A DNA stretch of 64,000 bases, taken from the NCBI GenBank assembly GCA_964016885.1, contig OZ024742.1:64232001-64296000 (forward strand). Direction: 5' to 3'. The stretch's first letter is position 1; each line of letters begins with the position of its first letter. Position numbers and translations under genes: made by a program. A model generated the notes under the pieces. It saw only the letters and a program-made list of their open reading frames with translations. It was not told the DNA's origin and searched no databases. Origin of the DNA: Eledone cirrhosa (lineage: Eukaryota). Shown here in pieces: positions 3,046 to 61,819 of this stretch.

Positions 3046-4084
3046 ATAATGATGATGGTGATAATAATAATAATAATAATAATAAAGATGACAATAATAA
3101 TGTAAAAATCTTTAACAACACCTTTGGAAGAGTGTGTACTGAATTAACGATGAAACCATAGTTGATTCACCTAGTAGAAATAACAGTCAAATCACCACCT
3201 ACTTTCTTAAAAATAAATAAGAAGAGAGAACACATTAGCTAGTGTAATCCAAAACATACTATGTTGGGGTGGTCTGTGTGATCAGGGTTTAGCTGGGGTT
3301 AAACAATGACTGCTGCTGCATATAAGTGACTGGTATACAGAATTTTGCTAGGTGGAGGAGGAGAGGGGCAATTTCCAAAGTGATAAGTAAATGTCATGAA
3401 CTATTGTAAAGAGGTAGAGAGATTAATAATAAACTAGAAAGATTAGCATTGAAAGGAGATTCATGTCCCTCTAGCAATCAGCTGCAACAACAGGCAGTTC
3501 ACTTTTTTAAAATAGATCAAATCTGTGCCACAAGAAGAAGAAGATAGATATTTAGACAGCCAATGCCTTTTATCATCCAATGATAGATAAACTCAATTTG
3601 ATTTTGTTGTTTCCAGAGAAAACTAATGTAGAGGTTTGTGCAATCAATGTATGTCACAGAAAAATTACATAAATATGGAGAAATATAGAAAACAGTTACT
3701 GTATATACTTATGTATAAGTCACACAGATAGATAAGTTACATCTTCATTTTACATACAGCATTCTTGGTTGTTTATGTATTTAGTTTAGAATAGGTACAC
3801 CATATCCCTGTGTGTTGTAAGATGTAATATATATATATATGTGTGTGTGTACATATATATATATATATATGTATATACAGTTTATATATATGAAATGGTG
3901 GAATCCAAACACAGAAAATAACTGCAACAACAGTCAACCGCTATCAATAATAATAGCTTTAGAAAAATTGGGTATAATACCTTTTGGGACAGAAAAAGAG
4001 TGGGCAGCAGCCACTCCATATATATTGCTTTATGTATCCAGTTTGGAATAGATGCACCACATCCCTGCATGTTGTAAGAGGTGC

Positions 4085-4129
<45 letters not shown>

Positions 4130-4489
4130 TTAAACACAAGTATATCAAGTAGATTACATAACAGTGTTAGGAAATAAATCTTTTTTTAAAAATGTATAGA
4201 AAGTAGTTTCTTTTTTTTTGCTTTTTCTTTGGTAGAGAACCACAGCAATTTATAGGTAAATAAGTAGAAGTAGTAAGAGAGGTTTAGATTTTTTTCTTTT
4301 GTTTTTGTTATGAAGGTGAAAAAACAGTTGAGAAAGAGAGAGAGAGAGAGAGGAGAAATAGAGAAAAAGAGAAGAGACAGATACAGAGAGAAGTGGGGAG
4401 AGCATGTTGAAGAAATTCTTTGATGGAAACCATTTCTGAAAATAGAAAATGAAAATAAATGAATATATAGATTCTAATCAAACACAATA

Positions 4490-4770: not shown

Positions 4771-6479
4771 ACTACACAGTAGAAAAAGGCCACAAAATTG
4801 AGTTTAAGAAGAAGCCTATAACATTTTATATCAACTGTCAGTATTGATCTGGTAATTATATTATTGATCCCCCAGAAGAATGAAAAGCAATGTCAACCGT
4901 GGCAGGATTTGAACTTGGAACATAGTAAAGAAATACAGCTAAAAACTACATGGTATTTTGTCCAAATGATCTACTGATTCTGTACATTTACTGCCCTAAA
5001 ATAATATATAAATGCTATAAAGTGTTTAGCATAAAGGGCATCCAGCTGTAGAAAGCCAAGCCAAGAACAAAACATGTGGCAACCCATCTAACCAACACAA
5101 ACATGGAAAATAAATGTATAATGATAATAATCATGCCAATGAGGAAACCTATAAGTGCTGATTTGATCTGTTAGAAATAGCAGCTAAATATCCCTCATGT
5201 GTTATGTCTGAATAAAAGACAGATAGTCTTTCATCATAGACCTGTTGGATCATGGCTGACCTGAGGCTAAACAACAACAAAGTACACATACTTTCTTTAA
5301 TTGGTTCCTGCCAGTTAGTTGTAGCAACAATATAGAGGAGTTTTCTGATATCAATATATAGTAAAATATTTTCTGAAACATGAAGGGAGATCTTAAAGAC
5401 TGATGTTTACCTAGTCTCATGATATTAACTCTTAACATTCTGCAATGATTTAGCACAAAAGATCTAAAAACAGGTTTGTTAATTCAAATGTTTATAGTAT
5501 CTTTACCAGTGGACAGATCATTGTGAAAATTTGTAGTATTAGAGTAAATATTAAACATGATGTAGTCACAGTGCTGTTTAATACTTTTGAAGAATGTCTT
5601 GCTAATGTGGTTTGTTGATTCAAATATTTATAGTATCTTTGCTAGAAGACAGATCATTGCGAAAATTTACAGTATTAAAGTAAAGGCTTTAATGTTTAAC
5701 ATGATGCAGTCGTTTCAAGAATGTCTTGCTAATGTGGTTTCAAGTGGTACAGTTGCCACTGTATAACAGGTAATGCTCCTCCATGATCTGGTACAATAAG
5801 TTATAGCTAATCTATATGAGGTACCTACCCATGTGTAGCCACTCAACCAGGGGTACCTACCTAGGTATATCCAGTTTATACAGGGTACTTTCATGGTTTG
5901 GAGACTATTTACAAAATCACTGCTGCCACCACTACCACCTTCACAGATACCACCCAACAAAGTGACCAGTCTGGATAAAGGCCCTTCCATCACCCACAGT
6001 ATGCTCTTATTATTCTCTCCAAATACTTCTTGTTCTCTACAGAGATCTAATTCAATTTATGAAAACACCACAAAGAGCAATCATTCTAACTCCTCTAGCT
6101 ACCGAGTTTTCAGTTTTATTTCCAAAACCACAAAGGTACAAAAAACAGTCATAAACAGCTGACTTCTTCATAATGAGTCTCTCTCTCACTCTCTGACCTT
6201 AATAACCACAGTGTAGTTTCCATCAAGTCAAGAGACCAGTGCTCTCCCACTATCTCTCTTTCTTGACTGTGGCTCATTCAATAGACAAAAATAAATTTCT
6301 TGTGATGATGGAGACTGAAAACATGTGGTGTATAGTTAGTGGCTAGAGGCTTGGAATACAGTAAATAAGATTTTATATATTTTATCAGTTAGACTGATGT
6401 GAAGAAAGGAGAAAGTTTTTCTCGGGTTGATCACGTGATCAAATATTTGCAACAGTCAACCCTACTGAAGGCATCTAAA

Positions 6480-6940: not shown

Positions 6941-7128
6941 ACACAAGAACAGGTAGAGTACATCCAATGAACTTCCATACAGTTTCACTGTATTAAATTC
7001 ACTCACAAGGCTTAGATTGGCCTGGCACTAAGGATGAAACCTAAAACCATGTGGTTGTGAAGCAAACATTCTAACCACACAGCCATCAAGATTTAGAGGA
7101 GTACAGTTAAAATTGTGGATATTTTTAC

Positions 7129-7918
7129 TGCTTACCAGTTAAACAAAACATGATTTAATATAACTTTAGCTTGTCAAATATTGCTTACCTGGTAAACATG
7201 ACATGATTTAATGTGACTTTAGCTTGTCAAATATTGCTTACCTGGTAAACATGACATGATTTAATGTGACTTTAGCTTGTCAAATATTGCTTACCTGGTA
7301 AACATGACATGATTTAATGTGACTTTAGCTTGTCAAATATTGCTTACCTGGTAAACATGACATGGTTTAATGTGACTTTAGCTTGTCAAATATTGCTTAC
7401 CTGGTAAACATGACATGATTTAATGTGACTTTAGCTTGTCAAATATTGCTTACCTGGTAAACATGACATGATTTAATGTGACTTTAGCTTGTCAAATATT
7501 GCTAACCTGGTAAACATGACATGGTTTAATGTGACTTTAGCTTGTCAAATATTGCTTACCTGGTAAACATGACATGGTTTAATGTGACTTTAGCTTGTCA
7601 AATATTGCTTACCTGGTAAACATGACATGGTTTAATGTGACTTTAGCTTGTCAAATATTGCTTACCTGGTAAACATGACATGGTTTAATGTGACTTTAGC
7701 TTGTCAAATATTGCTTACCTGGTAAACATGACATGGTTTAATGTGACTTTAGCTTGTCAAATATTGCTTACCTGGTAAACATGACATGGTTTAATGTGAC
7801 TTTAGCTTGTCAAATATTGATAACCTGGTAAACATGACATGGTTTAATGTGACTTTAGCTTGTCAAATATTGCTTACCTGGTAAACATGACATGGTTTAA
7901 TGTGACTTTAGCTTGTCA
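7129..7918. repeat. 53-bp tandem array, 15 copies, overlapping the nicalin stop codon
   Basis: Unit tgcttacctggtaaacatgacatg(a/g)tttaatgtgactttagcttgtcaaatat; units start at 7129, 7182 ... 7871. Confidence 0.97.
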
Positions 7919-7965
7919 GACATTTGGACAGACTTTTGCAAAAAACCTTTCAACAGATGGAAATT
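7897..7965 (-). CDS. NCLN: Nicalin last coding exon with stop codon
   Basis: Acceptor ctttctcttctccag; [22 protein letters not shown]. The KLKSH end fits a KxKxx dilysine ER-retrieval motif, comparable to human ...KAKTQ. Confidence 0.85.
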   Translation of the reverse strand, partial: NFHLLKGFLQKSVQMSDKLKSH

Positions 7966-10900
7966 CTGGAGAAGAGAAAGAAAATATTAAAGTAAGTTTT
8001 AAAATGAAATGAGACCACACATACACACATTGTTTAATCATCAGTGTGTGTGTGAGTGTAAGAAGCTTCTCCATTTAGAATAACTAGAACATAAATAAGG
8101 TTTGTTAAGTAGAAACTTCATACAATTATTATTATGGATTGGCAGGATCATTAGAGGGTCGGACGCCATGCTTTGCAGCATGGAGTTACGTCCCTTTACG
8201 ATCTGAGTTCAAATCCCGTCGAGGTTAACTTTGCCTTTCATCCTTATGGGGTCGATAAAATAAAGTACCAGTAATGCACTGGGATAATTGCTGGCCTTGT
8301 GCCAAAAGTAGAAATCATTATTATTATTATTATTATTACACAAGGCAGTGGATTGGCAGTATTGGTAAAGGGTCAGACGCCATGCTTTCCAGCATAGAGT
8401 TACGGCCCTTGCCATTCTGAGTTCAAATCCTGCCGAGGTTAACTTTGCCTTTCATCCTTACGGTGTCGATAAAATAAAGTACCAACAATGTACTGGGTAA
8501 TTGCTGGCCTTGTGCCAAAAGTAGAAACAATTATTACATAGGCCAGTGGATTGGCAATATCGGTGGAGTGTTGGATAAAATGCTGAGTGATATTTGTTGA
8601 CTACGTTCTGAGTTCAACTTTGCACTCCCCCGCAAATTGCTAACCTTGTGCCAATGTTAGAAAGAATTAATATTATGGATTAGTAGTATCAGTAGAGCAT
8701 CAGACACCATGCTTTGCAGCATAGAGTTATATCCCAAGGTTAATAGCCACATAGTTTATGTTCATATAATGTGTGCAAGAGAACAAATGTTATTAGTCTA
8801 AAACAGCCACTTCACTGTTAATAAGTTCACCTACTGAATCCTCAATATTTTTATGTCAGTTTTTCCATGCTGGCATGGGCTTGACAAGATCTTTTGAAGC
8901 AGTATTCTAAGCCTGGATGCTCTTCCTTTACTTGTTTTTAAGTAAAGTACTGATTTTTATGTCAAACCACAGGGAGATAAACAAACGTCACTACAGATGG
9001 CGACACATTCACACAAATGTATAGTTTCGGTATTCTAAATACACTCCCAATTAAACCTATTTACTCAACTTTTATATACAATGTGAAAATAGTGAGAAAA
9101 ATGCTGACCAAACTGAAAAATAATTAAAACCCCTTTTAGATCCCATTTGAATAACATTTTTCTGAGGTATGTCAATGCTGCTGTTTGTTACCACCATCAT
9201 CATACATCAGCTTTCCATGTTGGCATAGGTTGAGCAACCTGACTCACTCATTACATTCCCTGTTTGGCATGGTTTCTATGGTGAATGCCCTTCCCAATAG
9301 CAACCAACTTATTGGGTGCATTTTTCATAAAAATAGTACTATCAATTTACAAAGTGGATCGTGCCGCGCCATCGAGGCCGAAACAAATGAGATCGTGTAG
9401 GTGTCACGACAAAAAAACACACAGTCCACGCTGTAATGTGGCCGTGTAGGCAACACGGTAAAAACCTCCCAGACCCACACTGTAAATGTGGTTGGTGTTA
9501 GGAAGGGCATCCAACTGTAGAAAACCTGCCAGACAGTCCTATGCGAGCAAGACAATCACTCTTGCCTCAAGTGGGAAAACCCCCGTCCAAACCCATGCAA
9601 GCGTGGAACACGGACGTTAAACGTTGATGATGATGATGATGATGATCGAGTGCATTTTATAACACTAACACTTTACAGGGTGTACTGGGTGTATTTTATT
9701 GTAGCAACATCATTTTTATGACTATTATTCTGTGCTGGAATGAGTTGGAGAAGTTTCTATTAAAGCAGTATTCTATAGCTGGTGCCTTTCTTTTTCAAAA
9801 ATATAGTAATTTGGTACAACTTAATGTAGGAAAGAGTAAGTGATCTTCTAGGTCTTTACAATAAAGTGTAGTAACATTGTATTCTCAAAGCCTTTAAGGA
9901 TTGTAGTAGTGTTGTAAGAAATGAGGTAATATTGTAAGCAATGTAGTACTGTTGCAAGGACTGTAGTAGTACAGTATAGATTGTAGTAGTAAGATTTAAG
10001 TGACTATTTTGTGATTTCAGGGTAGAAAGAAGTATGGAATATACTTACTTGGACAATAAGATAAACAACAGCTAAATAGGCTCCAATGCCAACAGCTAAG
10101 AAGAGATCAAAGATAGCTGGTTTCACACTGTAAATAGTATAAAGTATATAACATTTATAAAGTATTAAACATTAATATTTATAATTAATTTAATAATTAT
10201 ATTTCCTTGGGTGAGCCAGTAGAGATATTGCAGAGAATTTTTCCTTCAGAAGATAGAAGAGGTAAATATTCCAATTTGCAGCAGGAGAACTGGTCAGAGG
10301 AAATGTCCAGCAAATCCAAAGTAGGTTGGTCAATGTTGAAGAAAAACAGTTGAGCGCAATGATGTGAGTAAGTTCAGATAAGTTTCTTTTAAGTAGCAGA
10401 CCGCAGAACGAACGTGCATAAAAATGCCCAGCAAGTGACGTCAAATTTACGACGCAAGGTGTCGCAATTTTTTTACTGGCATTAATAAAGTAGCTCGTGG
10501 CTGAACTATTCTTTGAGATGAATAGCAATGAGTGTTTTAGTAAAATCCACCACGCGGGAAAATGACGAAACGAAGAAGACAAGATGGCTGCTCGAAAATG
10601 AAAGAGGAAGGCAGCAGTCGCCATATTGGTTGTTGGTCTTAAACAAAAGCTTGGTTGAATGAGAAAGACACGAGGTGTAATTTTCAGAAAAAGAAATATG
10701 TTAAAAAATGAAAGAGTCCAATTTAATGAATGGTTCGTAATAAGATGTAGCGAAAGTATAAACAGCCAAGTTAGAAGCATTTGAACGTTGTCACTACGTG
10801 AGGTGGGAATAGAAATTTTTTTTGTTTTTCTTCATTCTTCAGTTGGTGTTATTTTACGTTAGGGTGTCGCCATTTTAGTGGTTGGTGTTTCTGTACGTCG

Positions 10901-12665
10901 GGTCACCATTTTAGTGTTGGTGTTTCTGTACGTCGGATCACCATTTTAGTGTTGGTGTTTCTGTACGTCGGGTCACCATTTTAGTAGTTGTTGGACCCAG
11001 GATTATTTACTTGAGTAAATATCACCGGAATCCAACTACTAATTTTATACAGAAAAGGATAAGATATATTTACAAAACACCATATCGAATACAAGTCTTC
11101 ATTTGATTGTAACTCTGTTATAATTGTGGTACACAAATATCCTCGCACATATTTAGGTATAGTCCAAGCCCGTGATTAACATGTTCATCTTCCGTGTTGT
11201 CGGTTCGAAGGAAAGCGCCAAAGAGAGAATATATCTTCGGTGTAAACGCGCCTGGCCCAAGGCCAGGCAGCCAAAAGGTGAAAAGAGGAAGATAGCTTTC
11301 AGCTCTCTCCTTTATAGTTCCCTGGACGGAAGTCACAAAGAAGGTTCTGGAATTTCAACGGGAAGTAATTCCAGCTACTTCTTGTCCAGAGAGCGCTACA
11401 TATTTCCTAATACATGCTTACAGTCATACATATAAAAACAAATTAACTCCCAACCATTTCACTATATATCATTTCATATTTGCTTGTATATTAACTCTTT
11501 TGATACTGCTGTCTGATACTCTCCCTGGTTTGCTTTGAAGTGTTTATATTTATCTAAAAACTTGTCAGAATTTTATGTGAGAATCTTTGTTAAGTTATGC
11601 TCCAGAAATCAATTTAATAATGTTCAATAATATTGCAAAATCCCTCGAAATTCTTATTTTCAAAACTATTTGGAAACCATAAATAGGGTGTTTCATTGGA
11701 AAACATTAAACTACAAAGACCATGGTTTTCTCTGATAAATATTTGTTGACTCACACATTACAGACTCCACTGGCAGTATCGGTAGAGGGTCGGACAACAG
11801 GCTTTGCAGCACAGAGTTACGCTCCTTTCTGATCTGAGTTTAAATCCTGCCGAGGTTAACTTTGCCTTTCATCCTTACAGGGTCGATAAAATAAAGTACC
11901 AGTAATGCACTGGGATAATTGCTGGCCTTGTGCCAAAAGTAGAAACAATTATATTACACAAGCAAGTTTTCTTCTTCAAAGACAAAAGCTAATTCATTCT
12001 GGAAATCTGCTAAAATTTTACAAATGTAAAACATTTTTTTGTAAATATAGCTGATGCTAAATAATTGCTCAAATCTCCAAGTCATACTCATCATGAGTCC
12101 TTTTTTGAGGCAATATTTTACAGTTGGGTGTCCTTCCTGACACCAAACCTTTTAGTCACCTCTTACAACATGCAGTGATATGGTTTACTATTACTAAACT
12201 GGATACATGAAAGTTACAGACTATATAAATATATTATCACTGTATGTTACTGTATATATATATATATATATACAGAATTGAACGAACATTATTCTGCCGT
12301 CACAGAACTAAAACCCTTTTTTCCCACTACAAGCCGAATATTACATAAAAGAGGGACATCCCCCAACTATATAAACCTTAATCTAGTTAGAAAAATATAA
12401 AAACAATCTCTTCTCAACATATATTAATAACCTTAAATTACCATACTAATAATGAAAAGATATGCTGATGAAAATAGGTACAAATATGCGATAATGAATG
12501 TGTCTAAAAACGTCCATAAGTATGTATATATATGTGAAAATGTATATAAATAAGTAAATATATATATATGTTTGATGTGTATAGTTAGATGTAAGTGTAT
12601 TCATGTATTAAAGTGCTTATATATATATATATATATGTGTGTATGTGTATATGTGTGTGTGTGGG

Positions 12666-12718
<53 letters not shown>

Positions 12719-12743
12719 ATGTATATATATATATATGTGTATG

Positions 12744-12776
<33 letters not shown>

Positions 12777-14376
12777 GTATGTGGATGTGTATGTATGCGT
12801 ATGTGTGTACACATGGACTAGAGTATGTATGTATATATGTGTGTGTCTATACGTGTGTAAATATAAAGATAAGTTGAGTATGAAAATGTATACACATGAG
12901 CGCGTATGTATGTACATGAATACATGTGTGTATATATATGTGTATGCATGTGTATATATATGTAAGTATGAATATGTGAATTGTGAGTATATGTATTTTG
13001 TAGAGGTGTGCAAATATATTTGTGTGTGAATGCGTGGGTGAAAGAATAAGTACACTTGAAAGAAAAATTTAAGTCTGAATGTTAAGTGCAAACACAAAAC
13101 CAACCACGCATATCTTTACTATCTCTAATCCTTCTATAGATTTAGAAAAATAACCAATAATATATTCCATAAAAAATGTCAAAACAACAGATGGGAATCT
13201 AATTACTCACTGCCACCAAGAATTCTCACTGCTATCGAAAAACCACTCCTTCAACTATTCTTCTAACAACTTCACCCCTCCCTCCTAATATTCTCTATAA
13301 AAACTAAATAGGTCCTCAGTAATATTATTCTGATGAAATGACAGTAAATAATAACATTGAAATATTGAATGTCTGCATAACTAAAAGTTTGTAGATAGCT
13401 GTTTTAGGTTATGTAACTGTTATAGAAACACGTGTCAATAAATTCCTTTCAACTAAACTGTATCCATTCAAATCTTTCTATATATATATATATATATATA
13501 TATGTCTGATGGTAGTTAAGATGCTTCCATAGGCAGTATGCTGGTTGAGCACTCTATGCTCTTACAGAGCAGAGTATGATATAATAGAAAACGACAAATC
13601 AGTGATGCATCTGAACTCAATTTATTGTGTGTTACAATTGTTTTGCCGGTGGACAGCTCGAGACATGATCATTGTGTGGATCTGTCTGATTCTGGACCTG
13701 CAGGTTCGACGGACACATCTAATGATTTTGGAGCATATTCTCTCATGTGAGAGAATATGATTTTTCACTGTTTTTCGTTTTCTATTATATATATATATAT
13801 ATATACATGGAAAGTTATATTTAAAATTGTTGGGTTACAACTAGTAAATATTTATAACTGATATAAAAGCACTCGACAAATATTTGGAGTATATTTACAA
13901 TATTAAATAAATGGAAACTATATTTATAAAACCATATTTATTTCATTATATATATTTCGGGGATATCATATTAACAATATGCTATGCCTTCCTCAGACAA
14001 AATACAATATAAACAGTTTTATAGATAAATAGATTCGACATACCGTTATAACACCGACTTCCATTTGAAGAGGTTTAAGCTGGCAGTGAAAAAATTTTAC
14101 ACATTTTCTCTCTTTCTTTCTCTGTGTAAAATTTTTTCACTGCCAGCTTAAACCTCTTCAAATGGAAGTCGGTGTTATAACGGTATGTCGAATCTATTTA
14201 TCTATAAAACTGTTTATATTGTATTTTGTCTGAGGAAGGCATAGCATATTGTTAATATGATATCCCCGAAATATATATAATGAAATAAATATGGTTTTAT
14301 AAATATAGTTTCCATTTATTTAATATTGTATATATATATATATATATATAAATATATATATTCTCTCACATGAGAG

Positions 14377-14408
<32 letters not shown>

Positions 14409-14449
14409 TATATATTCTCTCATGTGAGAGAATATGATTTTTCGTTTTC

Positions 14450-14498
<49 letters not shown>

Positions 14499-17400
14499 CA
14501 CACACCTACTTAAACTTTATAAATATAACATCACTGTATGAAGTTGCATTGATATATTATCATCTCCACTTTAACATCTTTTTTCCATACTTGTATGTGA
14601 CAGTATGGTTTTTATGGCTGGATGCCCTTCCTAATATCAACCACTTGACAACATGTAACTGATACATTTTATTGTGGCACCAGCACTACTGCCTGACAGG
14701 ATGGACTTGGTGTTTTACATTGGCTTGGGTGTATTTTTTATTGTGAAATACCTAAAGTTACAGAATATATCTAAACTATAATAAAGTAAGGAGCGCGGGA
14801 CTGCGTACGGTTTATAATTTTTTATCCCATTAGTAAAATAAGTTGGATTACTTTGAATAAATAATGAATGAATATTACATAATTTATCTACTAAATTTTG
14901 TGGCTGTTGATTAAATATATTTTGTTTATTTAAAGATTCACTTCTTTAAAATTTCTGAAATGTCAACACTTCCGGTTGTCCATCGCCTAAATAAACATAC
15001 TAATTTTCTCCTAATGCAGTTTATATATAATATCGTCTTTTTTAATGTATCATGGATTACATTACTGATTAAATAAGACAGTGTAACACAGTCTTCGTTC
15101 AATTTCTGTGTATTATATATTGTCAATTACGATTTTATTTGATGTATCATATCTACATGTATATATACCTGCGTATAATATCAATATACACACTACACAG
15201 GCTAGCAGAAAACCTCCCAGAGGGTGGTTTTTCTGCTAGTATATATAACTAATCTGTGTGTATCCAGTTTATAATACAATGTATCATTATATGTTGTAAT
15301 AAATGACAAAAAAGGTTAGCACCAGGAAAAGCATGCAGCCAAGAAATATTGCCGTAAAAAGGACACCATGGTGAATATGAAGCTTAACAAAAGGCTCATA
15401 AGGCTAACCTGTCCTTTACAGAGAAAATGCCCTTAAAAGGCTTGATGTTGTTATTGTTGAAAGACATGTACTTACTTGTATGCATTCATTGAGTATACAG
15501 CACCATCATAGAATAAGAACTCTGGATCTCTAGAAAATTAAATTAAAATATTTGAAATAATTGTTGTGATCTCTACATAAAATACATTATTCTACTCAAT
15601 ACTCTGAAAGGGATGGCAATAGAGTCAGTGGTGAATGCTGTGACGGGAAATGGAATGAGATTGCTGGGTCATGTGTTGAAGGAGGATGAAAGTGACTGAA
15701 TGAGATGAATCGAGTCAGAGATGAATATGAAAAGAAAAGGAGTGAAATGGTTGGGTTAAGTGTTGAGGAAGGATGAAAGTGACTGGGTGAAAGGAATAGG
15801 GCCAATGATGAATGTTGTGGAAATAACTGTTACAAACTTGTTCAATACTATTTAAAACTGTTACTAACTCATTTAACCCTTTTGATAACAACCAGCTTAT
15901 AACTGTCCTAGATTTATCATATAAAACTGTCCATTTTAAAACATTCAAACTTAACATTAAAACCTTCCATTATGATTTAATTTAAGAATTTCTTTTGTTA
16001 AATAATGCTCCAAACATAAATTTACTGAGGAAAAAGTGATTTTGTTATACACCTCCAAATTTGTTATAGTTTTATAAATAAATTGAAACACATAAGCAGT
16101 ATTTCATTAGAAATATGGTAACAAAAAGCTCAGGTTGGGTTTTTAAAAATGTTATTTTTTTTAAGATGAAATAACTGAAGATATGTTTATTTCTTTCCTT
16201 GTTTTACTTCTGACAGTTGGAATACAAACACAATGATTTAACACTTTTGATTCCAAATCACTTGTAACTACCCATGTTGCTACAATACAAAACTGTTTGT
16301 TTTAAAGTGCTTATCATCATCATCTCCATCATCATCATCATCATTTAACGTCCATCTTCCACGCTAGCATGAGCTAGACGGTTTTGTTCCATTTGATGCA
16401 GGAATAATCTAAAAACCCTCCACTATAATTTGATGTAAAAGCCTTTGTTAAGTTCTGTTCCAAACGCCAGTTTAATAATTACTAAAGCCATTTAAATTCT
16501 TTATAATTTTCAAAATTATTCAAAAATCATAGACAATATCTTTCATTAGAAATATGGTAACAAAAGGATTAAATGATCCTGGAAGTAAAAAGAGAAAATA
16601 AACAGACCATAGAAGTTACCTTTTATCAGCTTTCATCCCTGACACACGGATATCTTTGAGATAACGTGACAATGTTTCTTCCAGATTTGTGATAATGCTA
16701 TGATCTTTCGGAACAAGTGGTGTTGCTCTAGGCTGTGATGTAAGACAATCCAGCCAAGCTGTTATTAATTCTTCTTGAACTTCCTGTAATTAAATTCAAT
16801 GGTTAAAAATAGTTAGAAACAAAATGAGGGAAGATGGTAATTATATAAATAGATATTGAATTAATTTTGTTGACTAAGAATGCCTATCATATGTATGTCT
16901 GTATAACCATCATCCCATTTTATGTCCATTTCTCCATGATTGCATGTGTTGGAAGAGTCCTATACAGCAGTCTAGCTCCACTTGTCACATTCCTTTATCA
17001 TCACCTCTGTGAGGTTCAGTGTTTTGAGGGGGGGGGGGGGGGGGGCAGTATATGCCTGTTGTTGCAAACGTCATAATGATACCATTTATAAAAGCCTGCA
17101 GTGATATTTGTTTATGTCCCCATAAACAATACATCCTGCAGCATAGCAGTTCGACTGACATCAGCAGTATGTATACTGTACTTATATTAAGATGATATGG
17201 GTTGATATCAGGAAAGGCATCAAAACATGCTCAAAACAACTCATCCAACAAATGTAAGCATGGAAAAGGCAAATATGATGATGACGAAGAATACATTTAT
17301 GTATTCAAAATAAATATAAAATCAGACACAACATATTTACTATCAGGGAAAACATGTTAAATGATGGTATATGTGCATATCAGAAGTGACTAAAAGAGTT

Positions 17401-20400
17401 AGTGTAAAGAAGGGCATCCAGCAGTAAAACATTGCCTCAAAAAATCCTGTCCAACCCATGCCAGCATGGAAAAGTTGACATAAAAGCGATGATGATCATA
17501 TATATATATATATTTTTTTAAGGCTAAATTTGAGTTTTGTTACTCTGAAGTTTTTCCTTACAAGATCATCAGAAGAGACTGAGTGTTATCTGATGACCTT
17601 GTGAGAACACAGGAGAAACTCCAGAGTAATAAGACTCGAACTTGATCTTAATAAAGAAAATATTAATCTTTACTATAGTACTGAGAACTAATTCTCATGA
17701 CCAATCATCAACACAGAGTATATAACAGAATAAAACTTGATTCACTCTTGTTTAATTCAGTCTATTGTTTGTCCATTTACACTAGTTTTCTCAATTAGTC
17801 AATGTAAAATTTTAGAGGTTTAAAGATTTCAACATTTCCAAACCTTAGATTTTTCACAGGACTTTTAGAGGCAAGGCAATGTTTAATAGCTGGGTGCCCT
17901 TCCTAATGCCAACTCATTTAGTTATGTCACCTCTCGTGACACACAGGGCTATGGTGTACCTATTCTGAACTGGGATACACACCATGTACAAACAAAAACA
18001 ATATTTATCCATAGTGCACGTCAACTGACAGATCACTGTCATATTTGATAATTTTCTTGAAATTCAAAACTGAAACATTTATTTAATCCACAAGGATAGG
18101 TTATTCTCATACTTGTGAAGGCACTTGCTTAAAATTCCAAGAATGTTAACAAATTCAACAGTCACCTAAAGAAGGTTGGAAGGTATAACAACTGAAACAT
18201 TGTGACTATAACAACTAATATAAGGACATTAGTCTGAATAAATCAGTGTATAATAATTGCTTCTACTTTTGGTACAAGGCCAGCAATTACCCCAGTGCAT
18301 TAATGGTGCTTTATTTTATTGACCCTGTAAGGATGAAAGGCAAAGTTAACCTCAGCGGGATTTGAAATCAGACCATAAAGGGCCATAACTCCATACTGCA
18401 AAGCATGGCATCCAACCTTCTACCAATACTGCCAATCCAATAATAATAATTCCTCATCTCAGAAACTTAATGTTTAAGATTCTACATTCCTATAAAAAGG
18501 CAAAATAAAAAAAATTAAAAATCAATATTTACCAGACCATCTGTAAACAAACGAAACTGGCCTTGATTTGTCAAATTATAAATATGGCGAGCTAAAGCTT
18601 CAGCTATTATCTGAATATTACGGCTGAGTATGCTGGTGTCAACTCGAGACCTAAACATAAAAAAAAGAACAATAATTTAGTAATTATTTTTATTATTTCA
18701 ATATAATTAAATAAAAGATATTGTCATAACCATTCATGTTAAAATGGCCAACATTGGGTGTGTGTAAATAAATGGAGTGGAAGAGAAAACAGTTAAATAC
18801 ATGCTTAACATTAATAGATGGCGTGGAAGAGAAAATTGTTAAATACTTGCTTAACATTAATTAATAGATGTATGTAAAGGAGTAGATATTTTACTTGCCT
18901 AACATCGAGAACGGTAGCCCTCTCATTAGTCTTGTGTGTATCCAGACGAGAAAGACTGAATGCAGGCAGTCTCTTTATGCTGAATCTCTCGTGTTCCCAG
19001 GCTAAAGTATCCTCAGCCAAATTTATCTTTTTATGTATCATCTTAAATTCCACATCAGGGAAAAAATTTTTGGTTATTTCTTCTAAATTCTGGAAAAGAT
19101 ACAAAGGATAACTTAATTCTTAACATCATATACCACATAAAGTCTCATTAACAAGACATACTTGAAAAGTATGAAACAGCACTGATTACATCACATTAAA
19201 AATTAAAGACTTTACTTAAGTATTGCAAATTTTCATAATGATCTGTCTATTAATAAAGATATAAACATCTGAATTAACAATCACTTGAAACTATAGTAGT
19301 AAAACATTCTTGAAAAGTATAAAACATCACCATGACTATCACATTAAAAATTAATGTAAATTTTCCCAATGATCTGTCCACTAGTAAAGACACTATAAAA
19401 ACATGAATTAACAAACCTATTTCTGGAAATTTTCTGCTAAATAATTAAAGGATGTTAAGAGTTATAGATAAAATGTAGGGGTATGGGGAAAAACAAAACG
19501 AAAAGTCCCATTGAATAAGACTGTTATAATATACAAGGAAAAGACCCACCTTTTATAGGTCCTTTATTGACCTTAAGTTGTCATTCTCCTACAAACAATC
19601 TGGGAGCAATAGATGAGATCTATTCTCAAAATAGCCATCTTGTTCAGAATTTAGTGTTTATGCTCTCAACTACATCTTTTAATTTATATCACTTTTCATG
19701 TGATACAGGATGTTAAACCAGATATTTGTATACAATACTTGCTTTCTGCATTTATATGAAGAAAACTTAATTATAGGGTTGAGAAGGCTCTTTAGTTGTG
19801 TTAAGGATGCGATAATATCGCTAGTGTTGGTGCAATGATAAAATGCACAAAATACATTCTGTAAAATGTTGGGATGTATGTAAACAAGATGCAAGCCCTT
19901 GGCCTCACTGGGGAGTCAGTGGATCTGATTAAATACTGACTTGGTCTGTGATGCCTTGTCTAACCCATGTCAGCATGGAATAGACATTAAATGATGATGT
20001 TGAATCAAATACAAAGGATATGTGGAATAGAATGAAAAGAGATGGATTTTTTCATTTACTTTCTATTGTTCATTATGTCAACATTTGTATTCAGTTTGGA
20101 TACATACATTCTAAATTCAATTCCAGATTAGTAATCAGTAAATTTCCTCTAAAATGTTTATGAACAGTGATTGCAGGATTTAACCCTTTTGCTACCATAT
20201 TTTAATGAAAAACACTGCCTATGATTTTCAAATAATTTTGAAAATACTTATTTGAAGTGATTTAGTAATACAATTAACTTTTAGTAAGTTGGTAAATATA
20301 AACATTTAAAAATAACTAGATTCATATTGTAGAACCAGGGATCGGTGGAGAATTAGCAGAGTTGTTAGAACGTCGGATATGATGCATTGCAGTATTGATT

Positions 20401-23400
20401 CCAGCTCTCTGTGCACTCTGAATTCAAATCCCACCAAGGTCAGCTCTGCTTTTAATCCTTTCAAGATCAATGAAAAAAAGTACCAATCCAGTACTGGGGT
20501 TGATTCTTCCTCTATATATCTTTCTCACTCATTCTCAATCTCTGGAAAAATCGGCTATTTTCAGACCTGGTTAGGGGATGGGCTCTGCCAGGTTTAAAGT
20601 GCCCAAGATATACCATATATCATGACAACATCTCTATGACTACATCAGGAGTTTTAAAACCATACATACATATATTGTAGAGCCAGAGACAGTTCCAGGT
20701 AGTTTGGTATTAAAAGGTTAAAGATTTTGACATTATCAAAGTTTAGTTTAGCATAGAAAAAGAAAAGAACGTACTTTTAAGAATATTCCACCAGCACTAT
20801 CTTCTCTGGGTGGTTTAGAAACATGTAGGTTGAGGGTGTTACCACTCCCAATGGTATCCAGACATAACACATAGGCTACATCTGTTAACTGGTTGTTATC
20901 TGAAAAAAAGCAATGTCATGGGTTATCAGCAAACTGGNNNNNNNNNNNNNNNNNNNNNNNNNNNNNNNNNNNNNNNNNNNNNNNNNNNNNNNNNNNNNNN
21001 NNNNNNNNNNNNNNNNNNNNNNNNNNNNNNNNNNNNNNNNNNNNNNNNNNNNNNNNNNNNNNNNNNNNNNNNNNNNNNNNNNNNNNNNNNNNNNNNNNNN
21101 NNNNNNNNNNNNNNNNNNNNNNNNNNNNNNNNNNNNNAGAAAGACAACATTGTTATGAGTTGTATTAGTTTACTAGTCATAATAACTGCATTGTGTTAAT
21201 TCATATTTTCAGGAAGATAATCAATAAACGAAGTGAAGTAACATTGTTAAAGTAAGACCAATCATGCTACCATAGCTCTCATTACACTGAAACTACTTTC
21301 CACTATCACATATTCTTTCCAGTGTCAAACATTTAATATCTTATACTGAACATTAATGTGCCTCCTGCTCCTTACACTGATTAACCCTTTAACATTTAAA
21401 CTGGCCACATCTGGCCAGAATTCTCTCACCTCTTTCTGTTCAAACTGGTCATAACCAACCACTCATACTGATGTTAAGGTATTGTTCTCAAAATAAATAA
21501 TATCAAAATGTCATAGATTTGATATTATATGAGATAAAGCCTTTACTGCGAAAATACAATAGTAAATATAGAGTAATATAAATGCTAAAGGGTTAAAACA
21601 AAATATAAACTACAAACTAAGAAACCAGAGTTTATAAAGGAGGAGTTAGTTACTTACCAGTTGACTCCAGACTGTCTTCAATCCAGCGCTTAGTCCCCTG
21701 GTAGTTAAATTTACCACCTCCAGTCAATAAAAACACCAAATTATATCTGTTGCCAGTTAAGGAATATAGGAGAAGGAGTAAAGAAAGTTAATAAATGTGA
21801 AGTTAGAGGAGGAAAACCTAGAGAACGGAGTGACAAGAATGGACCTATAACACCTAGTCGAGTCATAGGGGTAACAGTGACATACAGCATTTCTTGGGAA
21901 TTTTAAACCTGGCAGAGCCCATCCCTCTCCAGGTCTGAAAACACAGCCAATTTCTTCCAGAGAAAAGAGAGAGAGAAAATAAGAAAGATATAGAGAAAGA
22001 ATCATCCTCAGTACTGGACTGGTACTTTATTTATTGACCTCAGAACGAATACTACAAAGCATTCAATCTGATGTTCTCAAAACTCTGCAAATTCGCCACT
22101 TACAGAGAACAGAGAGAGCACCACTAATAGCAGAGATAGCACAGTTAGCACCACTTATAGTAAAGGAGTTAGCCACTGAGTCTGTTTTGTATCCTGTCAC
22201 TGATACTGTGTCATGTCAAAGTTCACCATTAATATGTAAATAGTTACACATATAATGAACTGCTAATAAGAAAAGAACTTGAGTTAATGTTTTATCATCA
22301 TCAATATCATCATTTATTATCTGCTTTCCCTTCTAGCAAGGGTTGGATGGTTGTCCATAGACCAAGTCTGTATTAAAGCGGGGCTACTAACTTCCAGATA
22401 GGCTGAGGGGTATGTATCACACTTACATACAGTCATATCGAGTGTACACTGTAAATATTGTATGTAAAATGGGAGTGAAACCTATCTACTGAACCTACAA
22501 AACCTTAATTTAAAATATATGGTACAGTGTAAATGCTGTATGCACCATATATAGGTGAGTCAAACAAGTATATATGGCCTATGGAATATTATGGTAGTGT
22601 TTACAATTAGACAGACTGAACAGCAATTGCTGATCTCTGAGTCCAACATGTCACCTCAATCAACTGAAACTTCCCAGAATCTAAGTAAAATGGTACAGAA
22701 TATAAAAGGATACTTTGCATGTGTTCGAGAATTGGTGTAAAGTTTGGAGAAAAGTCGAGCCAGTTCAAGAAGGGTTACAACTCCACTTCCATTAGAATCA
22801 GCTCCCTCAGATAAACCCTGAAAAGGTAAAACATCAAAAACTATAACAAATCTTGTACTTGTTATCAAAGCAATCATGCAATGTTGGAGAGAAATAACCA
22901 AACTTGTTCAGTATTTCAGCAAGTATTAAAGTGTTGAACTGATGAGTAAAGTGTAAACTATGTGACAAGAGTTATTGACAACATGTAGAAACTCACACTA
23001 TGGATGTAGTACTGAAGTCATGTTATAATTAACATGTAATAAATAACTAATATTGAAGTCATGTAATACTGAAGTTGTGTAATAATTAACATGTAATATT
23101 GAAGTCATGTAATAGCATAATATTAAAGATGTGTAATAATCAACATGTTATAATTAACATGTAATACTAAAGTCATGTAATAATTAACATGTTATAATTA
23201 ACATGTAATACTAAAGTCATGTAATATTGAAGTCATGTAATAATTAACATGTACTATTGAAGTCATGTAATAATTAACATATAATTAACATGTTAAATAT
23301 AACATAACTTTAGTATTACATGTAATACTAAAGTCATGTTATAATTAACATGTAATACTAAAGTCATATTATAATTAACATGGAATACCGAAGTCATCTA

Positions 23401-26400
23401 ATAATTAACTGTAATATTGAAGTCTTGTAATACTGAATGACAGAGAATAAGCTAAGACTGGAGGGAAATGCTTCAATAGATATGTGATTTTAATCTACAT
23501 GAAAGCCAAAGTAGGGATGAACTGAAAGAGAAACTGAGTATAAGAACAATGAAATTTAGTGTGCAAGAGAGAAAACTGCACTGGTATGGCCATGTGATAT
23601 GTAAGGAGCTTAAACATTGATTGGGTGAAGAAGTGCCAGGATTTCCCAGAGAAAAGTCAAGGAAGATCTGGGCAGAAGTGATGAGAGCAGATCTTGATAT
23701 GCTGAACCTCACAGATTAAACGACAAAATAAAGCAATGTGTGGAGGGATTCTGTACTGAAAAAGTGTCATTCAACACAAGAAAGCATATAATAATTAAAT
23801 GTTGACAATCTGTAATCTCATAAGACAATGATGTTAATAATAAAGGCTTAGGTAGTAGATATGTCACCCAGTTAACATCAATACCTGGCCTTTGGTGGTA
23901 GACTTAATCTGCCACCTAGTTTAACACCACTACCTGGTCCTTGGTGGTAGACTTAATCTGTCATTGAGTTTAACACCACCACCTGGTCCTTGGGTAGACG
24001 TAATGTGTTATCCAGTTTAACACCACTACCTTGTAAAATTTCATTAAGACATAACTATGTTGAAACCACTCCAAATAGCTTCTGGTTTTAAGATACTTTA
24101 TTATCTCCCTTCCATGAAGGTGCGTGGCTAAGTGGTTAGGGTGTTGGATTTATGATCATAAAGTCATACGTTCAATTCCTGGACAAGGTGGCACACAGTG
24201 TCCCTATCTATATGTCCCTCCCACCTAAAGGGTTTCATGTCCCTATCTTCCTACAAAGATAGCTCTCCACCCTAGCAACATGTTTCCCCACCCTGCCTAT
24301 ATATATTCTTCCACCCATTCTCGCCCTACATAGTTGGTCTGCCTCACCATACCTAGATGTCCTCTGCACCTACCTAAAGAGGTCACCTATGTCCCCTCAC
24401 ACTACCTCAATATTCCCCACCACACCCTACTGAACAATGTAACAAGATATAACAAATCAAGAACATCTCTAATCATATACCAGCTCTATCAAGGTTAACT
24501 TGGAATGAAATCCCAACTAGACATCTCTAGATTAATGCAACAATAACTCAAGTGGTGAATTAATATACCAGATATGAAGACGAAGCTTAGTGGTTAAGGT
24601 ATTGGTCTCACCACCATAAGGTTGTAGGTTCAATTCCAAGACAGGGTGATATGCTCTTGAGCAAGAAGACACTTCATTTCATATTGCTCCAGTTCACTCA
24701 GTTGAAAATGAGTACGCTGTGATGGACTTATACTCTCAATCGACATATGTCCATGAATACAGAATAAACTCTGGGCTTTGTCTGACCCATGCATCATCAT
24801 CATCACAGGTCTATTTTTCATGTTTGCATCGGTTAGAAAGGTTGTCACATTCTGAGACTAGACAGGTCAGATGACTGAGTCTTGCTCATATGTTCCATTC
24901 TAACACAGTTTCTTCAGCTGGATGCCTTTCCTAACGACACTTTACAGTGTTTTACTGTGGAACCAGCACTATCACTTTATAGGGTAGAGTGGTATTTTTT
25001 TTTTATGGCATCAGAACTACCACTTTAGAGAGTGGGATGGGTGCCTTTATCATGGTGCCAGCACCACCACCGTCAAGTTGTGGCATTAAGTGACAAAGCT
25101 ATAACTAACTCTAACATAGGTTTCTTCCCTTAACAACTACAAAGGTGATCATCATCATCATCGTTTAACGTCCATCTTCCACGCTTGCATGGGTTTGGAT
25201 AATGAATATAATTGTTGCGTACTTACTGGTGCTATACCCATTGAGTCATAATGAGCAACTATGATGACACTGGGTAGCTGTTCTTCAATACCATAGCCTG
25301 CTAACCGACCCTGCAAAAGGGAAAGAATATCATATAAATGGAGGAGATATCAAACACATAGGGGAGATATCCCATACATGGAGGAGATATCCCATACATG
25401 GAGGAGATATCCCATACATAGAGGAGATATCCCATACATAGAGGAGATATCCCATACATAGAGGAGATATCCCATACATAGAGGAGATATCCCATACATA
25501 GAGGAGATATCCCATACATAGAGGAGATATCACATACATGAAGGAGATGTCACATACATGAAGGCGATATCACATACATGAAGGAGATATCACATACATG
25601 GAGGAGATATCACATACATAGAGGAGATATCCCATACATAGAGGAGATATCCCATACATAGAGGAGATATCACATACATGAAGGAGATGTCACATACATG
25701 AAGGAGATGTCACATACATGAAGGAGATGTCACATACATGGAGGAGATATCACATATATGGAGGAGATATCACATACATGAAGGCAATGTTATATATATA
25801 TATATGAATGAGATATCACATAAATGGAGGAAATGTTATATATATGAAGGAGATGTTATATATATGGAGTAGATATAACATATATGAAGGAGAAAGCTAA
25901 GAAACAGTGTTTACTGGAGAAGAAAGCTAAGATGTGATGTTTATTGAAGAAAAAAGTTAGGAAGTGATGTTTATTAAAGAAGGAAACTATAAAATGGTGT
26001 TTATTAGAAAAAAAAAAGCTAGGAAGTGGTGTTTACTGGAAAAGAAGGAAATTATAAAATTGTGTTTACTAGAGAAGAAAGCTAGAAAGTGTTGTTAACT
26101 GAAAGTGTAGCCTCGTAACACTGCAATGGCTGGTGAAAACAGTAAAAGTGTAAAAAAATGACATATTTCCTCCATACCTGAATGTTAGTGATTTGAAAAT
26201 CTGGCAGGGCCTTAGCCTGAGCCCCAGCAACCACCATTTGGAAGCCATTAGCTGAGGCAGCACTTAACAAGGCTGGAAAAAAATGAAAAATAAATAAAAT
26301 TAAAATTAAATTTTAAATAATATGAACAAAATTCAGATTAAGAACAATGTACTTAATGACAGCACATCTTTCTAAATTGTATATCTTAAAACAATAGTTA

Positions 26401-29400
26401 ATTTTCTAATTTAATAAGTTTTGTTTTCTATTTCATCCTCATTTAACATCCATCTTCCCTGCTAGGAATGATTGAAGCACTCTTCTCTAACAAAGTCAGT
26501 ACTCAAGTGGTGCTACTGACCCCACAGACAAGCCAGGCACCTACATTTCACATATGATCCCACATTCTACCAAGTGCATTTTATCATGACACCAGCACTT
26601 ATCAAAGGCTGGTTTTCATGGCTAGCAGACTGGTCTATCTAGGATAACATTAACATATGATATAATACCTACATAACAACAGTATATACACACCTGGCCA
26701 CTTCGTCTCTACAAGCAATATTTTTTAATTTGGAGTTTTAATGTTTTGTCAAGAAGGGAAACCCTCATAATTCTTATTTTTTCAGGGTCTCAGATATAGG
26801 TAGGAAACATGAAAGTAACTTGAAACCAGAGATATAGTCCAAATGATTGCAACAGAATGTACTCTATTAAAGACAACCAAGGACTATGTGGTGGTATTAA
26901 ACTGGGCAACAGTTTAAGTCTACTACCAAGAGGGACAACAACAGGATTAGGACTCAAAATACAAAGAACCAGTACTTTATTGATGCCAAAAGGGTGAAAG
27001 GCAAAAATAACCATCACAGGAATTGAACTCAGAACACAAGGAAATAGAATGAATACGATATAGCATTTTGTCTGATGCTCTGACAACTGCCAGTTTGAGT
27101 GAATGTAAAATCTGGCAATCTGTGTCATATCTAATCACTAGCATTGGTACAGAACACAATATTGCTGAGCTATTGAAGAAGAGAGACAAGATTTATAACA
27201 AAAACAAAGCACAACTAACTCATCAACTCACCTTCGAGAGCACTTGGTGCTTGATCTCCAGTTGACAAATGCTTCACATCTATGTAGATGTTTGTTAGGG
27301 CCTCACTCTCGTAGGCAAAGAACACAGGAATGCTGGTCTCTTCCAACAGAAGCTCTCTTTCAAGGCTGTACAGTCTCTGTTAATAACACCATCATGGATT
27401 ACAATCATTGCAGAAGCCTTACTAGATCAGTAGCAACTAACACTAGATCAATATCAATTAATACAAATTCATTAGCAATCAACAACAAATCAATATCAAT
27501 TAGCACGAAACATGCAATACTTAGTTCAGGTAACTATCAAGATATGGTGAATACCCCTTTCATTCACTTATTCTAATAAGACACTGCCTATGATTTTCAA
27601 ATAATTTTGAAAATAATCAAGAATTTGGGGAGATTTAGTAATATAAACTTTGTTATCAAGCTGGCATTTGGAGCATAAGGTTTCTTGCATCAAATTATGA
27701 CCAAAGGTTTTTAGATAAATATAAGCACTTTTAAACAAACAGCTTTGTATCACCGAATCAGAAGTTTCAGATAGTTTGGTATGGAAAGTGTTAAATGAAC
27801 ATTCTAATCGGAGTCAGAAATAGCTATCAGATCATGTGGGAGTGTAAACTCCAATATTTTCTACTCAGTAAAAATACTGGCTTTAGGTTGAATTGTTCCC
27901 ACTGACAAAATGCAGGTTGTACAGGGTGTGGGATTTGAACTCAGAACTGAAATAGATACCAGAAAGCATCTTGTCTGAAGTACTAACAATTGTTAATAAA
28001 ACACCCTTGGACTGGTACTTTACTTATTGATCCCAAAATGGTAAAAGGTAAAGTTGATCCCGCTAGGATTTGAACTCAGCACAAAGAGCTGGAGTACCAA
28101 AAAGCATTTAACCTGAAATTATAACACTGCCAGTTCATTGCCTACAATATATCAATGTCTTATTCAAAGAGAGATTTATCTCTCATCTTAAGGCCATGAA
28201 ATATTGTGTATTCAGTTTAAAATAGGTACACTACATCCCTGCAGGTTAAAAGAGCTTATATATATATATATATACAACAAATTTAATATATTAATGTATT
28301 GAGTACCTTACTGTGGTTGCCCCTGATTGAACCCAGGACTAATATATATATATATTCATTTATTATGGCTAAGTGGTGAGCCTTGTTACTCTGCAGTTTC
28401 ACTTGCACACTCACAGGATCATCACAAAAAATTCATTCTCACATCCATCAATAACACATGTATATGAGTTGGTCTTTCACGATACATCCAACCCTTGCTA
28501 GCAGGAAAAACAGACATTAAATAATGATGACGACAATGATGATGTTGTGTATCCAGTTTACAATAGGTACACTGTATCCCTGAATGTCATAAAGTGAGTA
28601 ATTATTATCTTTATCATCATCCTTTTTACATCCACTTTTCCAGGCCTACAAGGGTTGGGCAGCTTTTTCCAATACAGATTCCTGCCATTTGTTATGGCCT
28701 TTCATCATCTCCTCTGAGAGGTACAGTGTTTTGTGATTTGTTCTTACCACTTCTGCACAGGTTTTCCTTCTCTTCCTCTACTGCAACTTCCCTCCACTTG
28801 AAACTCCTTACAGTTCTTCATCCAATGATCATCATCTATACACATCATATGGCCATACAAACACAGTCTTGCACAATACATTTGATTTCTCTCCCAACCC
28901 ATCCAAACTTTATGTACATTAACATGATATATCCCTCAGAACATGTGCGTTTCATTTCTCCAGTGTATCCAGTTTAAAATAAGTAAACTGCATCCATGTG
29001 TCTTATAAGAGGTAACATATATATATATATACCTGGGATGAGGTGATAAAAACAGACCTTGCACAATTGCACCTCTCAAAGGCAATGACTCAGTATCAAG
29101 ATTTTTGGTGTTATGCAGTAATACAGAAGACCCGTCTTCCCATGTGCATGGGTTGAAACATACATTCTAGTATGCACCGCTTAACCCCTATCCTCCACCC
29201 ACGTCCTAACACCCCCACCTCCACCCACTCCCCACAGTAAAGTGGTCGTTTTGGTGCCAAAACAAAAAGCAACCAGCCCAGACTGTAAAGTGATCGATAC
29301 AGTGCCATGATAAAAAGTACCCAGTCCTCACTGTAAAGTGGTTGTGTAGGTGTCATGACAAAAAGCACCCAATCCCCACTGTAAATGTGGTTAGTGTTAG

Positions 29401-30613: not shown

Positions 30614-30651
<38 letters not shown>

Positions 30652-37528: not shown

Positions 37529-37591
<63 letters not shown>

Positions 37592-37814
37592 TATACTGTG
37601 GGGTGGTTATAGTCTATAATTATTGGGAATATGACCATCCCAAAATATAATACTGGTTCAACATACAATTTCACATCAAGAATCTTGCAAAACATACAAA
37701 AACAATGCGTGTGTGTGTATACATATATATATATATATATACACACGTGTACATGCATTGGTGTAAAGAATCGTAGGTGTATATGAAATCATAATATAGA
37801 AGAATGTATGTATG

Positions 37815-37858
<44 letters not shown>

Positions 37859-37859
37859 C

Positions 37860-37912
<53 letters not shown>

Positions 37913-37917
37913 TATAC

Positions 37918-37964
<47 letters not shown>

Positions 37965-49178: not shown

Positions 49179-61819
<12,641 letters not shown>

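What the first reader, a model, noticed from the sequence alone, without database searches (positions are those of the whole stretch)
7129..7965. The nicalin stop codon plus a downstream splice donor is amplified 15 times as a 53-bp tandem array
On the sense (minus) strand each unit reads GAC AAG CTA AAG TCA CAT TAA ACCATGTCATGTTTACCAG|GTAAGCAATATTT. That is the last six codons (DKLKSH), the stop codon and a near-consensus 5' splice site. The first donor is 19 nt after the true stop, and later ones lie at 72, 125 nt and so on. Under the established 50-55 nt exon-junction rule, use of the first donor would escape nonsense-mediated decay (NMD) while use of any later one could trigger it. The copy next to the original (7818) has a weakened donor (GTTATC), as does the copy at 7500 (GTTAGC). 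Inference: a copy-number-variable array that could tune 3' UTR length or mRNA stability.
Basis: partly seen in the sequence, partly recalled or inferred. Interest (0 to 1): 0.75.

Follow-up and report, generated by a model that had tools for sequence, protein, structure and literature searches.

The report
Repeated splice donor behind nicalin stop
In an octopus-type genome the end of the nicalin gene, its stop codon and a splice-donor-like signal just behind it stand 15 times in a row; the repeat is real and resembles repeats known from several human genes, and the cell likely splices at the first signal, so the extra copies are probably passengers rather than a dial on messenger RNA level.

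Summary
Observation confirmed. Fifteen 53-bp units (7123-7917, minus strand) each repeat the last six nicalin codons, the stop and a donor, at 19, 72 ... 761 nt behind the stop; 12 donors are intact, 3 weaker. The stop is the true one (540 of 559 residues match O. sinensis nicalin). The array is single-locus, and sequencing-run word depth (9.2x and 9.4x against 9.5x and 9.8x expected) argues against an assembly artefact. A strong acceptor at 4435 suggests a 3.4-kb 3'UTR intron. No RNA was available, so donor use and NMD are untested. The layout is the known donor-spanning minisatellite (human F7, CBS, 6-16, LMNB2, PDGF; amphioxus mirages), where the first donor, or the first three, are used. 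The region holds 13 young arrays in 464 kb, and this scan noted the same layout before on other DNA of this genome (SHOC1, GTF3C4). Best reading: an old duplication, recent expansion, first donor used, neutral passenger (0.6). The NMD dial stays possible (0.15): these donors are strong and 53 nt apart, where mammalian tests favour downstream sites, and the nearest copy is the most weakened. Interest 0.27.

The parts
7897..38472 (-). nicalin (NCLN) coding region, 14 exons, 559 aa
   Evidence: 540 of 559 identical to O. sinensis nicalin; all 13 introns GT/GC-AG
10049..10127 (-). coding exon 13 (upstream neighbour, 79 nt)
7878..7965 (-). exon 14: last 22 codons, stop, 19 nt of UTR; 88 nt if donor 1 is used
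   Evidence: 3' border inferred, no RNA
7897..7899 (-). true stop codon TAA
7872..7880 (-). donor 1, CAG|GTAAGC, 19 nt behind the stop; 8 of 9 consensus matches, predicted U1 duplex -11.0 kcal/mol (13 coding donors: -3.0 to -10.7)
7865..7917 (-). unit 1 (the functional gene end)
7812..7864 (-). unit 2, donor weakened at +3 and +5 (GTTATC; 6 of 9; -5.6 kcal/mol)
7176..7811 (-). units 3-14, near-identical young copies; 11 intact donors; unit 8 weakened
   Evidence: mean 0.9 differences per pair among units 1-14, maximum 3
7494..7546 (-). unit 8, donor weakened at +3 (GTTAGC)
7129..7175 (-). unit 15, old diverged copy (7 of 47 differences, CTG|GTAAGC), continuous with the unique downstream flank
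   Evidence: seen with its flank in contigs of 3 of 4 runs
6115..6120 (-). first AATAAA behind the array, with an upstream TGTA and a GU-rich stretch downstream: candidate poly(A) signal for an unspliced form
   Evidence: motif only
4435..4458 (-). candidate acceptor of the 3'UTR intron (first exon base 4435; intron 3,442 nt from donor 1)
   Evidence: best of 382 AG sites in 7128-31; sites this good occur once in 28.6 kb of nicalin introns
3100..4435 (-). candidate terminal 3'UTR exon, poor in dispersed repeats; end unknown
   Evidence: no canonical hexamer in 4435-3050; inferred

Best explanation
This is a locus-specific 53-bp minisatellite whose first unit is the real end of the nicalin coding sequence, and it likely lies at the start of a 3'UTR intron that is probably spliced from the first donor, leaving the other 14 copies as likely passengers. 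Origin (inferred from sequence): a slippage duplication of about 54 bp covering the last codons, stop and donor made two copies long ago (unit 15 has since diverged at 7 of 47 bases); the first copy plus the junction then expanded recently, probably by misalignment on the 13 bases that old and new copies still share, and is turning over with a 5'/3' polarity. Splicing (inferred): exon definition from the acceptor at 7965 would pair with donor 1 (88-nt exon; the gene's exons are 54-191 nt), and the array would leave with a 3.4-kb intron ending at 4435. The junction would sit 19 nt behind the stop, below the 50-nt NMD distance. A small leak to unit 3 or later is likely; it would not change the protein and may be degraded. 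Copy number would then have little effect on expression.
For: Shown: anatomy and unit variants; real stop; real array; young arrays are common here, 13 with 10 or more copies and 90% or more identity in 464 kb, up to 218 copies, so expansion needs no special cause; 3,337 tandem triplets of the donor 8-mer genome-wide, of which this array would give 7 by my count. The bases before unit 1 resemble the inter-unit junction, and unit 15 runs into the unique flank. Unit 15's donor differs at -2 while donor 1 keeps the consensus and its codons, which fits donor 1 having been the used one (inference, no outgroup). [quoted passage not shown]
Against: No transcript evidence at all. Two strong donors 45 nt or more apart splice about 100% from the downstream site in HeLa cells and in vitro (PMC3413131 passages); spacing here is 53 nt, F7's is 37, and the intact donor is the gene's strongest by predicted U1 pairing. 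CBS and 6-16 use two pseudo-sites besides the authentic one. Two of the three variable positions among units 1-14 hit the donor (+3, +5), both in the nearest competitor (P = 0.077 for the 9-nt donor window, 0.009 for +3..+5 chosen after the fact), a hint that downstream donors are not fully inert. Predicted folding leaves donor 1 no more open than the others. The acceptor score was built from this gene's own 13 acceptors, and the candidate exon has no canonical poly(A) hexamer. All precedents are mammalian or cephalochordate.
Confidence: 0.6

Rival explanations
1. Competing-donor dial: a sizeable share of transcripts uses downstream donors, lengthening the 3'UTR by multiples of 53 nt and placing the junction more than 50 nt behind the stop, so NMD lowers nicalin mRNA; donor-weakening variants, above all in unit 2, and copy number set the level.
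For: 12 strong donors 53 nt apart; downstream preference at 45 nt or more; partial use of pseudo-sites in CBS and 6-16; variants fall on +3 and +5, with unit 2 hit twice; 3'UTR junction-triggered NMD is reported in animals, plants and a fungus.
Against: 11 of the 13 young copies 2-14 keep a perfect donor, which is hard to square with a costly leak; F7, LMNB2 and PDGF use the first site only; arrays arise freely here; the rule is uncharacterised in many lineages and no octopus UPF1/NMD paper was found; no polymorphism data.
Confidence: 0.15
2. The donors are mostly unused: exon 14 is terminal, the transcript reads through the array and ends at the AATAAA at 6120 (about 1.8-kb UTR) or at an ATTAAA inside a unit, so the array is a 3'UTR VNTR that changes UTR length directly.
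For: AATAAA at 6120 with an upstream TGTA and a downstream GU-rich stretch, in repeat-free sequence; ATTAAA in all 15 units; no canonical hexamer in the candidate distal exon.
Against: A consensus donor within 55 nt of a stop has P about 0.002 by chance; a top-scoring acceptor follows; 6400-7000 and 4500-5800 carry dispersed repeats like the gene's introns; bound U1 is known to suppress nearby cleavage (recalled, not from a call).
Confidence: 0.14
3. A downstream donor (unit 14 or 15) is the main one, giving a 777-830 nt exon with the whole array kept in the mature 3'UTR, tolerated because junction-dependent NMD is weak in this animal or on this mRNA.
For: Intron-proximal rule for strong, well-spaced donors; unit 15 carries the original intron start.
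Against: Exon far longer than the gene's 54-191 nt exons; in F7, forcing distant sites led to exon skipping, which here would remove the C-terminus; unit 15's donor is the weaker at -2.
Confidence: 0.08
4. The array is an assembly artefact or has a very different true length.
For: Near-identical units; no laid contig spans the array.
Against: Word depth on the two collapsed unit contigs is 9.2x and 9.4x the unique depth, against 9.5x and 9.8x expected from the assembly; units carry position-specific variants.
Confidence: 0.03

Closest known systems
Human F7 intron 7 37-bp VNTR, with 6-16 (25 pseudo-sites), CBS intron 13 (15-20 units), LAMIN B2 (10-15 x 100 bp) and PDGF intron 4 (16-18 x 81 bp); PMC1557585: abstract, introduction, results section 6 and discussion read; the primary papers on the other four genes not read
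   Same: First unit spans an exon-intron border, so the donor is reiterated in the intron; similar unit length and copy number.
   Different: Here the unit includes the stop codon and the intron would be in the 3'UTR, so donor choice cannot change the protein, only UTR length and junction distance; the donor is closer to consensus than F7's and the spacing (53 nt) is above the 45-nt threshold; animal is an octopod; usage untested.
Amphioxus 'mirage' minisatellites (Adh3, globins BflGb6, BflGb9); PMC3087553: abstract and section 16 read
   Same: Tandem copies of an exon-intron border in an invertebrate; homogenised inner units with a diverged boundary unit, as unit 15 here; splicing reported undisturbed.
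   Different: Those are at coding exons and were shown length-variable between haplotypes; not tested here.
Duplicated strong 5' splice sites in mammalian test substrates; PMC3413131: passages read
   Same: Strong identical donors more than 45 nt apart.
   Different: Two sites in engineered substrates, not a 15-fold array behind an internal exon; predicts the opposite outcome to F7.
Splicing-associated tandem repeats in humans (spl-TRs); PMC10078293: start of abstract in the listing and passages seen
   Same: Repeat length can shift splicing in cis.
   Different: Needs population genotype plus RNA data, which are absent here.

Membership tests
Donor-spanning minisatellite (F7/CBS/mirage type) | Head-to-tail array of 10-100 bp units at one locus | tested here: met
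Donor-spanning minisatellite (F7/CBS/mirage type) | First unit contains exon sequence of the host gene | tested here: met
   last six codons and stop
Donor-spanning minisatellite (F7/CBS/mirage type) | First unit spans a used exon-intron border | tested here: inconclusive
   consensus donor (P about 0.002) and candidate acceptor, but no RNA
Donor-spanning minisatellite (F7/CBS/mirage type) | Donor reiterated in sequence in later units | tested here: met
   11 of the 14 later units identical to donor 1
Donor-spanning minisatellite (F7/CBS/mirage type) | Most upstream donor preferred | not testable with these tools
   no RNA run listed
VNTR | Copy number differs between alleles or individuals | tested here: inconclusive
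   one sample only; its mean depth fits about 15 units
Regulated splicing-coupled NMD through a 3'UTR intron | Alternative junction 50 nt or more behind the stop | tested here: inconclusive
   geometry met for donors 2-15, use not shown
Regulated splicing-coupled NMD through a 3'UTR intron | Isoform stabilised by UPF1 loss or translation block | not testable with these tools
   needs experiment; no octopus paper found
Regulated splicing-coupled NMD through a 3'UTR intron | Arrangement conserved in related species | not testable with these tools
   no relative's DNA served; only proteins of other octopods

The most novel reading that the evidence does not exclude
A minisatellite that captured a stop codon plus its 3'UTR donor works as a heritable expression dial in a cephalopod: downstream donors are used, trigger junction-dependent NMD without changing the nicalin protein, and the nearest competing donor has been weakened by selection to hold the leak down. 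It would be a natural allelic ruler (19, 72, 125 ... nt) for the 50-nt NMD rule in a mollusc.
Probability: 0.12. Interest if true: 0.65.

Novelty: new member of a known kind. Interest (0 to 1): 0.27.

Why it matters
As a passenger it is one more donor-spanning minisatellite in a genome that has many, useful mainly as a marker and a warning for annotation. Its one special feature is position: because every donor lies behind the stop, donor choice changes only UTR length and junction distance, so ordinary RNA-seq at this locus would separate the 'first donor' rule from the 'downstream donor' rule, and test the 50-nt NMD rule in a cephalopod, without a frameshift confounding the result. My searches of the held library listed no 3'UTR example of this layout; subscription papers are not covered.

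Tried and rejected
RNA evidence: no RNA holder listed; this says nothing on expression. X4 (22% of words) had no cover on either exon and a repeat-only profile, so it gave no splicing information. Metagenome scan with a 20-base exon pattern: 3 loci, none extends beyond 20-22 bases, chance matches. Retrocopy as a transcript witness: a 95%-identical 370-bp copy of 3497-3868 on contig C2 has no poly(A) tail and no junction; no retrocopy of the last exon. Structure as a silencer of downstream donors: the array folds with z = -6.2 against whole-sequence shuffles, but against arrays of shuffled units 10 of 200 fold as well (z = -1.9; 13 other arrays range -1.8 to +1.9), and donor 1 is predicted as paired as the rest: marginal, not used. 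Genome-wide enrichment of tandem donors: 3,337 triplets against 1,660 for the reversed motif, but counts are of overlapping matches dominated by few long arrays (the first 100 listed all lie in one array), so no enrichment is claimed. Earlier findings near this place, by nicalin sequence, and by stop/donor/NMD words: none. PMC2812944 (passages): repeats at exon borders can form introns; no evidence for an intron inside this array (the unit has no pyrimidine tract).

Full report
Observation. On the minus strand 15 units of 53 bp start at 7917, 7864 ... 7175 (TRF 7129-7918, 14.9 copies, 97% matches). Each reads the codons for DKLKSH, TAA, 19 bases and a donor. Donors lie 19, 72 ... 761 nt behind the first stop (7899-7897). 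Twelve read CAG|GTAAGC; unit 2 has GTTATC, unit 8 GTTAGC, unit 15 CTG|GTAAGC. A search of G000 with 7760-7965 gave 7 matches, all within the array.

Host gene. One exon found nicalin of Octopus sinensis as best hit, 95% identical. Fourteen exons from 38472 to 7897 give 559 residues and one stop, 540 of 559 identical to that protein. Four of five members of its cluster (O. sinensis, two O. bimaculoides isoforms, Argonauta) end in KSH at the same place; the O. vulgaris model has a different tail. The stop in unit 1 is therefore the true stop, and the animal is an octopod by protein similarity.

Is the array real? Four runs of one study were listed, none recorded as RNA. In three runs of one sample, two short contigs lie on the unit with depths of 71/73/45 and 73/78/45, and the diverged unit 15 appears with its unique flank. 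Against three unique contigs per run (I left out a fourth, 9674-10200, whose depth in X3 was 37), pooled ratios are 9.2 and 9.4; the assembly predicts 9.5 and 9.8 (per run 7.9-10.6). The tool warns that such depth is no exact copy number, and the sample may be the assembly's own, but the agreement argues against an artefact. The fourth run had nothing laid there. Variation between animals could not be tested.

Is there an intron? A MAG|GTRAG motif occurs 41 times outside the array in 464 kb, so one within 55 nt of a given stop has P about 0.002. The intact donor has 8 of 9 consensus matches (3 of the 13 coding donors reach 8) and the best predicted U1 duplex, -11.0 kcal/mol against -3.0 to -10.7 (the U1 motif was recalled). 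Of 382 AG sites downstream, 4435 scores best (10.3; next 7.1; true acceptors 0.9-13.8 on a matrix built from them). Sites this good occur once in 28.6 kb of nicalin introns, once on the plus strand and six times on the minus strand of 464 kb, so support is moderate. Sequence behind 4435 is poor in dispersed repeats down to about 3100, but so is 5800-6400. The candidate exon has only variant poly(A) hexamers, while an AATAAA with plausible context lies at 6120 and every unit has ATTAAA. A 3,442-nt 3'UTR intron is likely, not shown.

Origin (inference). The nine bases before unit 1 resemble the eight-base junction between units, and unit 15 runs into the unique flank, so a duplication of about 54 bp came first. 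Unit 15 differs from the others at 6-9 of 47 bases, while units 1-14 differ on average at 0.9. The first copy plus junction has thus expanded recently, probably by misalignment on the 13 bases still shared with the old copy. A variant 2 nt behind the stop is T in units 9, 10, 12-15 and C in the others, a polar pattern with a diverged boundary unit, as described for amphioxus mirages (PMC3087553 section 16).

Background. In 464 kb around the window 17 arrays have period 15-200, 5 or more copies and 85% or more identity; 13 have 10 or more copies and 90% or more, one per 36 kb, up to 218 copies; 1 of 17 (this one) carries the donor motif. Genome-wide, 3,337 overlapping triplets of the donor 8-mer at 30-60 bp spacing exist (reversed control 1,660; not a test of enrichment). 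Unchecked notes of this scan describe the same layout in SHOC1 and GTF3C4 of this genome.

Which donor? No RNA could be examined. Precedent for the first donor: in human F7 only the most upstream of 5-9 identical donors is used, the next one only after mutation, and distant ones lead to exon skipping; LAMIN B2 and PDGF use the authentic site only; CBS and 6-16 use two more (PMC1557585: abstract, introduction, section 6, discussion). Exon 14 would be 88 nt with donor 1, 194 with unit 3 and 777 with unit 14, against 54-191 nt for the gene's other exons. Against: two strong sites 45 nt or more apart splice about 100% downstream (PMC3413131 passages), and this array has strong sites 53 nt apart. 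Two of three variable positions among the young units hit donor +3 and +5, both in unit 2 (P = 0.077 for the donor window), yet 11 of units 2-14 stay perfect. Folding gives no preference.

NMD. Junctions 50 nt or more behind a stop can elicit NMD, the role of the junction complex in flies was disputed, and many lineages are uncharacterised (PMC6173133 passages). No paper with octopus, UPF1 and nonsense-mediated was found.

Verdict. A real new member of a known kind of repeat, most likely spliced at the first donor (0.6). The post-stop position makes it a clean test locus; five searches of the held library (listings only) showed no 3'UTR example, and no supplements were consulted. Interest 0.27; 0.65 if the dial (probability about 0.12) proves true.

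Noticed in passing
window 25327-25893: A 20-bp x 28 array inside nicalin intron 4 ends just before the pyrimidine tract of the acceptor at 25310; it may cover the branch-point region.
   Followed up: no
window 18898-18893: Nicalin intron 9 has a GC donor (TAG|GCAAGT), with an in-phase-shifted GT four bases on.
   Followed up: partly
window 3497-3868 and G000:C2:26186826-26187187 (L051 3827-4188): A 370-bp piece of the candidate 3'UTR exon is copied at 95% identity on another contig, fused to a 284-bp truncated fragment of the LINE-like element also found at window 1356-1639 and next to a minisatellite; no poly(A) tail. Looks like a captured or templated insertion.
   Followed up: partly
P0105: The O. 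vulgaris nicalin model has a different last exon (ends VSFS) from the other four octopod proteins; may be a gene-model error or a disturbed last exon worth checking for a similar repeat.
   Followed up: no
window 51672-52850, minus strand: WD40-repeat exons of the upstream gene (Pfam WD40); recalled resemblance to TRAF7, not tested.
   Followed up: partly
window 13700-14450: Large inverted duplication around 14130-14140 (mirror sequence on both sides, with TA runs) inside nicalin intron 12, seen by eye.
   Followed up: no
window 550-1640, 40881-41540, 56643-56969: Transposon remains: reverse transcriptase fragments (PF00078) and a mariner-type transposase fragment (PF01359).
   Followed up: partly
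window 20938-21137: 200-base N gap inside nicalin intron 7.
   Followed up: no
G000:C1:177886587-177898600: A 12-kb or longer array of about 45-bp units, each with CAG|GTAAGA followed by GA runs; host gene not examined.
   Followed up: no
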